From NCBI GenBank assembly GCA_037379345.1, contig CM074521.1, forward strand, positions 32,760,704-32,824,703: a stretch of 64,000 nucleotides of DNA. Direction: 5' to 3'. The number at the start of each line of letters is the position of its first letter. The first letter of the stretch is position 1. A program made the position numbers. Below are positions 53,101-56,100 of the stretch, piece after piece. The DNA is from Perna viridis. Lineage: Eukaryota.

Positions 53101-56100
53101 CTAACTTTCTGCCAGATACTGATGATCATTCCCTATTAACTCAATACATAACATAATTTCAGACATAAACCATTAGGCAGGACACAATCTGCCCCATTAC
53201 CACTAGGTCATCCCTTCTTACAACAACAGAATCTGTTGATGCAGCAACAGCACTCACAACAAGTCAAGCAGAACATACGTCAAGTCATATTACAACGTAC
53301 AGGAATGGAAAATGTAGACGAGGAAACCGAGGCTAAACTACAACAGGTATGTTGGAAGGAAGAGGTATACTGAGGCTTATTAATGGATACATTTAATTAA
53401 AAAAAAATACTAGTTTAAGGAAATGGAAAGTTGATGTATGAAGTTTGATAAGGAAATTGGTCTAAGAACTAGAAATCTTATTGTTCTTTTGAAGTATTAT
53501 TTTATCTTAAAATAAGAGAATTAAATAGAATATGTTAGTAAGTCAAATTTGTTCTTTTTTTGTAGGAAATGAGAGAATCACGAGAGCAAGACTCAGATGA
53601 TGTCATTGTTGTGAAGGAAAGTAAAATGGATGAATCATCGAGTGAAACAGTGAAACCACAACCAACATTGCCGAACCATCCGAGGGAGAACCATCCAATT
53701 AAACGTAGACACCATCACCATCGACCATTGGCTAGGACACAGTCCAGTCCATTAGTCACATTCTCTAATCTACCACAACAGACATCTGACACAGATCCAA
53801 CTGTTACACGATATAGATACACCACAGGTAGACAGTAGTTTTGTTTGCCCCTCATAAATTTTGACATCAGGAATTTATGATTTTGTTCAGTGCATCCCTC
53901 TCTTAGATAAACTTCCTATTATGAGTTTCCTTAAAGCTTTAATGTTGTTTAGATTGAGTATATCATCATGAAGGATTGTACACATATGTCAACTTAAAGA
54001 TTTTAAAATACATGTTTTCAATTTAATGGGGTTGCCTGGAACATTCTAGACAAAGCATTTTATACAATGTCTCAACCTCATCATCCTTGTATATTATCAT
54101 CAAATTGTGGAAGTTGACCTTGACAAACACTAAAGGTTTATCTCTGGACCATTCATCATAATCCTTTCTAATAATGATAATGATAAGGAGGTGATAAGTA
54201 TTATTCAGTGCATAAGCACTCCAGTCAGCAGATTCTTGTGAAGTAATTTAATTGGATGCATAGGCTACAAAGATGTATAACAGAAATGTTATTTGTCAGT
54301 CAAGAACAAAATATGAAATACTCATTATACCATGAACAAATATTTAAGCCTTTAGCGTGAATTGGGTTTCCTAGGCCTATTTTGAAACCACTATAAACAG
54401 CGCTATCTTGTGAATCTGTATGATTATTTATATACTGGTAATCTATTTATAGGCCTAGCTTATGATTCAATCATGCAGAAACATCAGTGTACATGTAACA
54501 ACAACTCAAATCACCCAGAAAATGAGGGCAGACTTCATAGTATTTGGTCAAGGTTACATGAAACTGGTCTCACCACAAGATGTGAGGTAGGTACCATGTC
54601 ACAATGACCCAGAAAAAGAGGGCAGACTTCATAGTAAATGGTCAAGGTTACATGAAACTGGTCTTGCCACTAGATGTGAGGTAGGTACCATGTCACAATG
54701 ACCCTGAAAATGAGGGCAGACTTCATAGTATATGGTCGAGGTTGCATGAAACTGGTCTCACCACTAGACATGAGGTAGGTACCATGTCACAATCACCCAG
54801 AAAATAAGAACAGAATATGTAGTGGAGGGAAAGTGGAAATAACTCTGTTAATGACACCTGTCTCAACTTCAGGTTTTTGCAGATGATAAGTGGTCACAAA
54901 TTTCAATTGTTCTCTTTGTAATAGCATCCTTTCTTTATAGTGTGTTTTATCTTGTAAAGGATTTCCTTCTTAAGGTTTTATTTCAGTTGATATCATCAAA
55001 GGATAAGTTATAAGTGTTGGATCTACACTAATATCAAGTAGGCAAAGAATTAACATGCTGTATTTTTGTTTCACAACATTTTTTTCAGTCATTTTGATGA
55101 CTTATTTTTTATTGTGTGAGAAGTTAGAATAAAATTTCCAATTATTGCCAAAAGACTTGTATTTCAAGTATGTGACAGAAAAAAATTTATATTTTATGTC
55201 AGACTAACATGACGTCAGTGAGATTCTTATGTAACTTAATAAAAAATGACAGCATTGTTATGATATCCATCTCATTATTGATTCAATATTCCAATTTATT
55301 GTTCACAGTGCAGAAAGTTCAAATGAAGTGTAAATCACTACATGTATCATTTCAATACAATTTACATAGTTCAACATGTAGGTGGATGTAATGTATTCCA
55401 ACTATTTCCTACATAAGTACAGTATTTTTTTATATTTTTTTGAATGGATTGGAATCACCTTGCCTATCCATGTGATTGAGTCACAATTATCTTCCAGTAC
55501 TTGGATTAACTTCAAGTTAAGTGTGTGGCTTCATAAAGATGGGCATTCATTGTTTGGTGTTTCAGGTTTTTTCCGACATTAACTTCGTCTACAAATGGGG
55601 GTATACCTAGCACAACAATGTGTGCAACTTTATGTTTAATTCTGGTGTTGGCAATAATTGTTATAAAGTTATTCGACTATTTAAATAAAGCTGATAATGG
55701 GCATATAATGCTTTAGTACAGCTGTTTACTTTCATCTTATAGCCAAAAGCATAAATCTTGAACTCAACTAAAACTGCACTAAAACTTAAACAAATTTCTG
55801 GCTTCTAGGAAAGTACCATAAACACTGAAAGTCACTAAATAATTATTGATAATTTTAATTATGGCCATTACTTTTACAGTGCTATTTGTGTGGTGGAATC
55901 TATTCTGAATAAGAAAAAAAGAGAAACAAATTATGGTTGCTTTAGCATCTTTTGGATGCTGAATTTATTATAATGAAACTAGTACATGTACTACCCATGC
56001 TCTATAATACTGGCTCAAGGTGATAGGAATAATCATCCATTATCGCTCATTGTTTTTATCAGAGAATCAAGAGCAGAAAAGCCAGTATGGAAGAGTTACA

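What the first reader, a model, noticed from the sequence alone, without database searches (positions are those of the whole stretch)
54509..54808. Three tandem copies of a catalytic-domain exon's 3' end, each with an intact 5' splice site
Seen: the last ~78 nt of exon 54453-54586 plus the first ~16 intronic nt are repeated with period 94. The same GAG|GTAGGT donor therefore appears at 54587, 54681 and 54775, while the exon-derived parts of the copies have picked up substitutions. Reading through the first donor gives GTA GGT ACC ATG TCA CAA TGA (stop at 54605-54607). Inference: using either downstream donor would give an NMD target or a protein cut at the start of the deacetylase domain that keeps the MEF2 and 14-3-3 modules. 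That product would resemble vertebrate MITR/HDRP, the HDAC9 isoform lacking the catalytic domain. Proximal donors often compete well, so the array could tune HDAC dosage. It may equally be a neutral VNTR.
Basis: partly seen in the sequence, partly recalled or inferred. Interest (0 to 1): 0.7.

Follow-up and report, generated by a model that had tools for sequence, protein, structure and literature searches.

The report
Donor-spanning minisatellite in mussel HDAC4 gene
A 94-base stretch covering the end of one exon and its splice signal is repeated three times in a mussel histone-deacetylase gene; it is most likely a tolerated repeat of a kind already known from the human factor VII gene.

Summary
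TRF finds one array at 54509-54805: period 94, 3.2 copies, 91% matches, no indels. Each unit is the last 78 nt of exon 54453-54586 plus the first 16 intron nt. GAG|GTAGGT therefore recurs at 54587, 54681 and 54775. Read-through stops at TGA 54605-54607. The gene is a class IIa (HDAC4-like) deacetylase of a mytilid mussel, not human. All 4 related proteins found read ...RCE|RIKSRK..., which is donor 1 joined to the exon at 56063.

I favour a tolerated minisatellite. Tandem arrays cover 12.8% of the gene span, so 1.9 of 15 donors are expected inside one and 2 are seen. The second is at 52718-52875. Intact pseudo-donors are expected by chance (P=0.46). There is no unusual RNA structure. A direct precedent exists: the human F7 intron-7 VNTR, whose identical pseudo-donors stay silent (PMC1557585).

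The dosage-tuning and MITR-like readings are coherent but have no evidence. No reads, transcripts or mussel genomes could be searched, so donor usage is untested. It is a new member of a known kind, of modest interest.

The parts
54453..54586 (+). Coding exon (134 nt) of a class IIa HDAC gene. It encodes ...[45 protein letters not shown] and ends in phase 0.
   Evidence: Sequence and translation. 98% identical (44 aa) to Mytilus edulis HDAC4_5 and M. trossulus HDAC4-like X6. tblastn.
54509..54805 (+). Tandem array with period 94 and 3.2 copies.
   Evidence: TRF; the repeat finder D3.
54509..54602 (+). Copy 1: the authentic last 78 exon nt plus the first 16 intron nt.
54603..54696 (+). Copy 2, intronic. 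It differs from copy 1 at 7 of 94 positions. In its own frame the exon-derived part reads [26 protein letters not shown].
   Evidence: tblastn 54603-54680, 81%.
54697..54790 (+). Copy 3, intronic. It differs from copy 1 at 8 of 94 positions. In its own frame the exon-derived part reads [26 protein letters not shown].
   Evidence: tblastn 54697-54774, 88%.
54791..54814 (+). Partial fourth copy. The first 15 nt are identical to copy 1 and 21 of 24 match; similarity is then lost.
54584..54592 (+). Authentic 5' splice site GAG|GTAGGT, with GT at 54587. It matches 7 of 9 consensus positions.
   Evidence: The junction RCE|RIK is seen in 4 of 4 relatives.
54678..54686 (+). Pseudo-donor 2, an identical 9-mer with GT at 54681.
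54772..54780 (+). Pseudo-donor 3, an identical 9-mer with GT at 54775.
54605..54607 (+). In-frame TGA reached if donor 1 is read through. The resulting tail is VGTMSQ*.
54587..56062 (+). The intron when donor 1 is used. It contains AATAAA at 55128, 55238 and 55684.
56063..56180 (+). Next coding exon, [39 protein letters not shown]. Its acceptor is cag|AGA.

Best explanation
This is a local minisatellite. A 94-bp segment straddling the exon-intron junction was duplicated in tandem, probably by slippage or unequal exchange between a short direct repeat. That repeat is the 15-nt AATCACCCAGAAAAT-type match still seen at both ends of the array. The inner copy was then duplicated again. Only copy 1 is joined to the rest of the exon in frame, and its donor (54587) is the one that makes the HDAC4-like mRNA. 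Copies 2 and 3 are intron sequence. Their identical donors are 5' pseudo-sites that are used rarely or never, and any use gives a stop-containing transcript that is degraded. The array is tolerated rather than selected.

Shown: the anatomy, the frame consequences, the abundance of such arrays in this gene and the canonical junction in relatives. Inferred: the order of duplications, the mechanism of origin and the silence of the pseudo-donors.
For: 1. Anatomy as described.
2. The copies differ at 12 columns. Copies 2 and 3 share 3 states against copy 1 (unit positions 4, 36, 69). Copy 2 has 4 private changes and copy 3 has 5. This points to two successive duplications, neither recent.
3. The window is full of minisatellites. 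TRF gives 34 rows, which I merged into 19 arrays covering 11.6% of the window and 12.8% of the gene span. Under random placement 1.9 of 15 donors should lie inside an array. Two do, P(>=2)=0.59.
4. The second case is at 52718-52875, with period 37-38. It has the authentic donor TAG|GTAAAT at 52745 and pseudo-donors at 52784, 52821 and 52858.
5. Intact pseudo-donors need no selection. At the observed rate 0.77 substitutions are expected in the 18 pseudo-donor positions, P(0)=0.46. The longest invariant run of 23 nt has P=0.41.
6. No special RNA structure is present: z=-0.89, and 19 of 100 shuffles fold at least as well. There is no Rfam match in the window.
7. All 4 of 4 related proteins read RCE|RIKSRK.
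8. Precedent: the human F7 intron-7 37-bp VNTR has a first unit spanning the exon 7 junction. It carries five to nine identical sites, only the most upstream is used, and the pseudo-sites are functional but silent (PMC1557585: abstract, sections 6 and 12).
Against: No transcript, read or population data for this species could be examined, so silence of the pseudo-donors rests on analogy with a mammalian gene whose spacing is 37 bp, not 94 bp.

[quoted passage not shown] The F7 paper's own discussion notes that earlier duplicated-site experiments gave opposite results.

The substitutions lean towards synonymous. In the exon's frame 6 of 12 are synonymous against 16 of 78 synonymous sites (P=0.022), and 5 of 8 between copies 1 and 3 (P=0.012). 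However, 7 of 12 at third positions gives only P=0.066. This is a weak, post hoc hint that the copies were not always drifting freely. It could also reflect copies drawn from different alleles of the real exon.

All 12 variable columns fall in the first 74 of 94 positions (P=0.046, post hoc).
Confidence: 0.6

Rival explanations
1. The pseudo-donors are used at an appreciable rate. Extended exons of 228 or 322 nt carry the TGA at 54605-54607, and the transcripts are removed by nonsense-mediated decay. The array therefore lowers, and perhaps regulates, class IIa HDAC output. This could be an evolved control or simply a mildly harmful load.
For: The three donors are identical from -3 to +19 and score 7 of 9 consensus matches, within the 6-9 range of the gene's other donors. 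Extended exon sizes of 228 and 322 nt are ordinary, and the stop lies 73 or 167 nt upstream of the new junction. The FGG junction duplication gives aberrant transcripts (PMC9052919). Preference for the intron-proximal site among strong duplicated donors is recalled from Eperon and colleagues; I saw only their titles in a reference list.
Against: All 4 of 4 relatives show only the canonical junction, although decay targets would rarely be assembled. In the F7 VNTR the downstream sites are not used at all. There is no excess conservation of the pseudo-donors. Donors lie in arrays at the chance rate.
Confidence: 0.2
2. Use of a downstream donor, or retention of the intron with polyadenylation inside it, yields a stable protein ending ...[11 protein letters not shown]. 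This protein keeps the N-terminal regulatory half and lacks the catalytic domain, so it acts like vertebrate MITR/HDRP.
For: The predicted product stops about 25 residues into PF00850 and retains the HDAC4_Gln exon and three R-x-x-S-x-P motifs. MITR is 590 aa, has no catalytic domain and still represses transcription (PMC8516780, passages). AATAAA occurs in the intron at 55128, 55238 and 55684.
Against: The stop is in an internal exon with more coding exons downstream at 56063, about 60047 and 63879, so the spliced form is a decay target. Intron retention would give the same tail without any array, so the array is not needed for it. No protein of 33-105 aa sharing words with the read-through ORF was found. 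None of the 4 longer relatives ends in this tail. The 665- and 671-aa proteins P0002 and P0001 run past the junction into RIKSRK, so they are partial models and not this isoform.
Confidence: 0.04
3. The array is an assembly artefact, or one haplotype's rare allele, and the usual gene has a single copy.
For: Short tandem arrays are error-prone in assemblies, and no reads could be inspected.
Against: The copies differ at 7-9 of 94 positions in a tree-like pattern. An assembly stutter would give identical copies. There are no N and no indels between copies.
Confidence: 0.05
4. The extra U1-binding sites help the gene. They could enhance use of the upstream donor or guard a long pre-mRNA against premature cleavage. 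Alternatively the AG|GT at each unit end could act as a recursive splice point that regenerates the donor, leaving the mRNA unchanged.
For: Each unit ends in GAG|GTAGGT, which is both an AG and a donor. Both ideas are recalled from the mammalian and fly literature and were not tested.
Against: There is no pyrimidine tract before the internal AGs. There is no excess conservation. Nothing here distinguishes this reading from neutrality.
Confidence: 0.03

Closest known systems
Human F7 intron 7 VNTR (37-bp minisatellite whose first unit spans the exon 7-IVS7 boundary; Borensztajn et al. 2006, PMC1557585)
   Same: Both are tandem arrays whose first unit contains the exon end and the donor, so the authentic 5' splice site is followed by identical pseudo-sites facing one acceptor. 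Use of most pseudo-sites would break the frame.
   Different: The unit here is 94 nt (78 exon + 16 intron), not 37 nt. There are 3 copies, not 5-9. The host is a mollusc. Silence of the pseudo-sites and copy-number polymorphism are shown for F7 and untested here. A second array in this gene (52718-52875, period 37-38) is closer to F7 in size.
[quoted passage not shown]
   Same: It is a tandem duplication of an exon end plus its donor.
   Different: It is a recent pathogenic allele with 403-bp spacing, shown in minigenes to give aberrant, prematurely stopped transcripts. The array here has diverged copies and sits in an apparently intact gene.
MITR/HDRP, the truncated HDAC9 isoform (PMC8516780, passages)
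   Same: The predicted product of downstream-donor use would also be an N-terminal regulatory half without a working catalytic domain.
   Different: MITR is a well-characterised isoform. Here the stop lies in an internal exon and no transcript is known. That MITR ends in its own terminal exon is recalled, not read.
Unproductive splicing coupled to nonsense-mediated decay ('poison' splice choices; recalled)
   Same: An alternative 5' splice site would bring in a premature stop well upstream of later junctions.
   Different: Known regulated cases are usually strongly conserved and tied to an autoregulatory factor. No conservation or usage data exist here.
Intron gain by tandem duplication of an AGGT-containing exon segment (Rogers' model; recalled)
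   Same: A tandem duplication containing AG|GT creates paired GT and AG signals one unit apart.
   Different: The duplication here includes an existing donor, so it lengthens an existing intron rather than creating a new one.

Membership tests
Exon-intron-boundary VNTR with 5' pseudo-sites (F7 IVS7 type) | A tandem array whose first unit contains the exon-intron junction | tested here: met
   The array is at 54509-54805, the junction at 54586|54587 lies inside unit 1, and the exon bounds are fixed by homology.
Exon-intron-boundary VNTR with 5' pseudo-sites (F7 IVS7 type) | Downstream units carry donor sequences identical to the authentic one | tested here: met
   GAG|GTAGGT occurs at 54587, 54681 and 54775, identical from -3 to +19.
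Exon-intron-boundary VNTR with 5' pseudo-sites (F7 IVS7 type) | Only the most upstream site is used and the pseudo-sites are silent | not testable with these tools
   No RNA data are available for this species. All 4 of 4 related proteins show the canonical junction, but their genomic arrangement is unknown.
Exon-intron-boundary VNTR with 5' pseudo-sites (F7 IVS7 type) | Copy number varies among individuals | not testable with these tools
   No reads and no other mussel genomes are in reach.
Class IIa histone deacetylase (HDAC4/5/7/9-like) | N-terminal glutamine-rich region (Pfam HDAC4_Gln) | tested here: met
   Exon 26136-26354 scores E=1.6e-07 and 31.8 bits against a cut-off of 25.
Class IIa histone deacetylase (HDAC4/5/7/9-like) | C-terminal Hist_deacetyl domain (PF00850) | tested here: inconclusive
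   The relative P0004 has it at 618-932, E=8.1e-92. The window holds only its first exons (54455-54586, 56063-56179, 60020-60175, 63879-63932), which align to P0004. The three scanned alone gave no Pfam match. The exons were not joined.
MITR/HDRP-like truncated isoform | An open reading frame that keeps the N-terminal half and lacks the catalytic domain | tested here: met
   The stop is at 54605-54607, about 25 residues into the domain by P0004 numbering.
MITR/HDRP-like truncated isoform | A transcript of its own that escapes decay (own 3' end) | tested here: not met
   With donor 2 or 3 the stop sits in an internal exon, 73 or 167 nt before the junction, with further coding exons downstream. 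None of the 4 relatives ends in the tail, and no small protein matched.
Regulated unproductive splicing (poison splice site) | The alternative site introduces a premature stop upstream of later junctions | tested here: met
Regulated unproductive splicing (poison splice site) | The site is used in vivo and conserved beyond neutral expectation | tested here: inconclusive
   Usage is not testable. Within the array there is no excess conservation of the donors (P(0)=0.46; invariant run P=0.41). Cross-species conservation is not testable.

The most novel reading that the evidence does not exclude
The array is a selected set of 'poison' donors. The choice among three identical 5' splice sites, 94 nt apart, would be set by the cell's splicing-factor balance. 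It would divert a tunable share of class IIa HDAC pre-mRNA into decay, or into a MITR-like regulatory fragment. That would give a mollusc with a single such gene the catalytic-versus-scaffold switch that vertebrates obtain from HDAC9/MITR. The weak synonymous bias of the copies (6 of 12, P=0.022) would then be a trace of past or present constraint.
Probability: 0.07. Interest if true: 0.6.

Novelty: new member of a known kind. Interest (0 to 1): 0.27.

Why it matters
If the pseudo-donors are silent, this gene offers two natural tests of how a spliceosome picks the first of several equal donors. One has 94-nt spacing and identical sites. The other has 37-38-nt spacing and decayed sites, one of which matches the consensus better than the authentic site (8 of 9 against 7 of 9). 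Both lie outside mammals, where the F7 case was worked out. If the pseudo-donors are used, the array would be a simple, evolvable brake on a key signalling deacetylase. Either way it is a caution for gene prediction in repeat-rich bivalve genomes, because a predictor that picks a downstream copy truncates the protein.

Tried and rejected
1. Dispersed repeat or mobile element: rejected. The unit has no other copy in the window. No ORF of 120 aa or more lies outside satellites and exons near it.
2. Structured RNA or known RNA family: rejected. Folding gives z=-0.89, and there are 0 Rfam matches at gathering score in 64 kb.
3. Selection holding the donors intact: not supported.
4. Copies 2 and 3 as alternative coding segments: I found no way to read them in frame. 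Acceptor-like AGs inside the units give introns of a few tens of nt, or run into stops when read by eye. This was inspection only, not a tool test.
5. Search for small proteins or ORFs carrying the read-through tail or the pseudo-copies: no candidates.
7. Literature on a Mytilus HDAC4 isoform: the 9 papers listed had nothing relevant by title or abstract. For bivalve minisatellites, 59 papers matched and 10 were listed, with nothing on junction-spanning arrays.
8. The third protein search, the representative search, structure prediction and the prokaryote genome collection were left unused, because none can hold mussel genomic or junction data.

Full report
**What is there.** The stretch 54509-54805 is a clean tandem array with period 94, 3.2 copies, 91% matches and no indels (TRF; the repeat finder family D3).
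- The units start at 54509, 54603 and 54697. A fourth copy is present only as its first 15 nt (54791-54805, identical to copy 1), with 21 of the first 24 nt matching.
- The three full copies differ pairwise at 7, 8 and 9 of 94 positions.
- The unit has no other copy in the 64-kb window; the best match outside the array is 13-15 nt.
- The window has no N and is 31.6% G+C.

**The gene.** The exon 54453-54586, translated from 54455, is 98% identical over 44 residues to Mytilus edulis 'HDAC4_5' and M. trossulus 'histone deacetylase 4-like isoform X6'. That search returned 4 proteins from 4 candidates.
- tblastn of one of them (P0004, 1024 aa) lays out the gene on the + strand from 13690 to 63932 in about 16 exons.
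- Over all aligned pieces the window is 81-84% identical to the four proteins. Minus-strand pieces and the two pseudo-copies were dropped before that count.
- The source is therefore a mytilid mussel outside the M. edulis group. It is not human sequence.
- Exons were searched one by one.
- Pfam places HDAC4_Gln on exon 26136-26354 and, in P0004, Hist_deacetyl at residues 618-932. The repeated unit encodes P0004-equivalent residues 617-642, the first ~25 residues of the catalytic domain.

- The acceptor tag|G puts the exon start at 54453, and the exon ends in phase 0 at 54586.
- The next exon starts at 56063 after cag| and reads [13 protein letters not shown].
- The unit is 78 exon nt plus 16 intron nt.
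- GAG|GTAGGT stands at 54587, 54681 and 54775, with context identical from -3 to +19. The 12-mer across it occurs exactly three times in the window.
- Reading through donor 1 gives VGTMSQ and TGA at 54605-54607.
- The period is 31 codons plus one base, so each copy lies in a different frame and only donor 1 keeps the frame.
- Using donor 2 or 3 gives exons of 228 or 322 nt, with the stop 73 or 167 nt before the junction.

**History of the copies.** Twelve columns vary.
- Copies 2 and 3 share three states against copy 1 (unit positions 4, 36, 69). Copy 2 has four private changes and copy 3 has five.
- The partial fourth copy carries copy 1's state at position 4.
- I infer a first duplication, then a duplication of the inner copy, both old enough for 4-5 changes per copy.
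- I also infer that the 15-24-nt match at the two ends of the array is the short direct repeat between which exchange or slippage took place.
- This divergence also argues against an assembly stutter.

**Is anything selected?**
- All 12 variable columns lie in the first 74 positions (P=0.046). That cut was chosen after seeing the data. The longest invariant run (23 nt, circular) is ordinary (P=0.41).
- At the observed rate, 0.77 changes are expected in the 18 pseudo-donor positions, so finding none has P=0.46. Intact pseudo-donors need no explanation.
- One result points the other way. In the exon's frame 6 of 12 changes are synonymous against 16 of 78 synonymous sites (P=0.022). Between copies 1 and 3 the figure is 5 of 8 (P=0.012). 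Third-position excess is only 7 of 12 (P=0.066).
- This is weak and post hoc. It might mean copies were drawn from different alleles of the real exon, which differ mostly at silent sites, or it might be chance. I cannot exclude past constraint.
- The pre-mRNA 54440-54850 folds no better than shuffles: z=-0.89, and 19 of 100 shuffles fold at least as well. No Rfam family matches anywhere in the window.

**Context.** The gene is crowded with minisatellites.
- TRF at score 80 or more gives 34 rows, which I merged by hand into 19 arrays. They cover 11.6% of the window and 12.8% of the gene span.
- With 15 donors placed from the tblastn map, 1.9 are expected inside an array by chance and 2 are (P(>=2)=0.59).
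- The second is at 52718-52875. The last ~22 nt of exon 52569-52744 plus ~15 intron nt are repeated about four times with period 37-38.
- Its authentic donor is TAG|GTAAAT at 52745. Pseudo-donors are AAG|GTAATT (52784), AAG|GTCATA (52821) and CTG|GTAGAT (52858).
- By simple consensus count the first pseudo-donor (8 of 9) beats the authentic site (7 of 9).
- The donor studied here scores 7 of 9, within the 6-9 range of 13 other donors of the gene. A fourteenth was mis-set by one base in that call and is left out.

**What is known.** The closest precedent is the human F7 gene.
- A 37-bp VNTR in intron 7 has a first unit spanning the exon 7 boundary, so five to nine identical donors face one acceptor.
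- Only the most upstream is used. The others work when it is destroyed, yet do not compete even when improved.
- I read the abstract, the first Results section and the Discussion of PMC1557585. That Discussion also records that earlier duplicated-site experiments disagreed.
- MITR is described as a 590-aa truncated HDAC9 isoform without a catalytic domain that still represses (PMC8516780, passages).
- The listings showed nothing, by title or abstract, on a mussel HDAC4 isoform or on junction-spanning arrays in bivalves. Papers outside that library, and supplements, were not seen.

**Evidence on usage.** All 4 of 4 related proteins read ...TSRCE|RIKSRK.
- The two short ones (665 and 671 aa) run past the junction, so they are partial models and not a truncated isoform.
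- A search for 33-105-aa proteins sharing words with the read-through ORF found no candidate.
- No mussel genome, read set or transcriptome could be searched with these tools. The two closed collections and the prokaryote genome collection would not have helped.

**Verdict.**
- Most likely (0.6) this is a tolerated minisatellite that happens to straddle a splice junction in a repeat-rich gene, with downstream donors that are silent or nearly so, as in F7.
- Appreciable unproductive use of the pseudo-donors is the main rival (0.2).
- A stable MITR-like product (0.04), an assembly artefact (0.05), and a helper or recursive role for the extra sites (0.03) are less likely.
- The finding is a new member of a known kind, made somewhat more useful by the second array in the same gene.

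Noticed in passing
window 52718-52875: This is a second donor-spanning minisatellite in the same gene. The end of exon 52569-52744 plus the start of its intron is repeated about 4 times with period 37-38. The authentic donor is TAG|GTAAAT at 52745, with pseudo-donors at 52784 (AAG|GTAATT, 8 of 9 consensus matches, better than the authentic 7 of 9), 52821 and 52858.
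   Followed up: partly
window 57200-59041: A 27-nt satellite of 69 copies at 92% matches lies in the intron after exon 56063-56180. Because 27 is a multiple of 3 it gives long stop-free frames on both strands, for example a 653-aa ORF at 57108-59069 (-) reading ILGKGFTYD repeats. This is almost certainly not a gene.
   Followed up: no
window 38975-39409: A G-rich minisatellite (unit GGGGTGGGGTGGGGTGTACTAATGATGTAACAGACA, period 36, 12.7 copies) begins 23 nt downstream of the donor GAG|GTGAGT at 38952. Runs of G next to a donor are known splicing-enhancer or quadruplex-forming material (recalled, not tested).
   Followed up: no
window 37457-37588: This exon (SEPNLKVRSALKQKLESQRRITHSPILRRKDKASFLKRKPLS) is present in P0004 and P0002 but absent from M. 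trossulus isoform X6 (P0003 reads RKTVDCSS). It is therefore probably a cassette exon. It holds part of the first R-x-x-S-x-P motif.
   Followed up: no
window 26352-29454 (intron after exon 26136-26351): The relatives differ just after ...HIKVQQ. P0001 goes straight to HLVML, P0004 and P0003 insert VQEHIKMQ, and P0002 inserts VSVGLTQYK. This suggests small alternative exons or alternative donors, which tblastn did not place in the window at E<1.
   Followed up: no
whole window: There are 19 separate tandem arrays with periods of 2-158 nt in 64 kb, covering 11.6% of the sequence. Most lie in the introns of one gene. Examples are 35996-36528 (period 41, 98% matches), 43449-44445 (period 38) and 45555-45918 (period 46).
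   Followed up: partly
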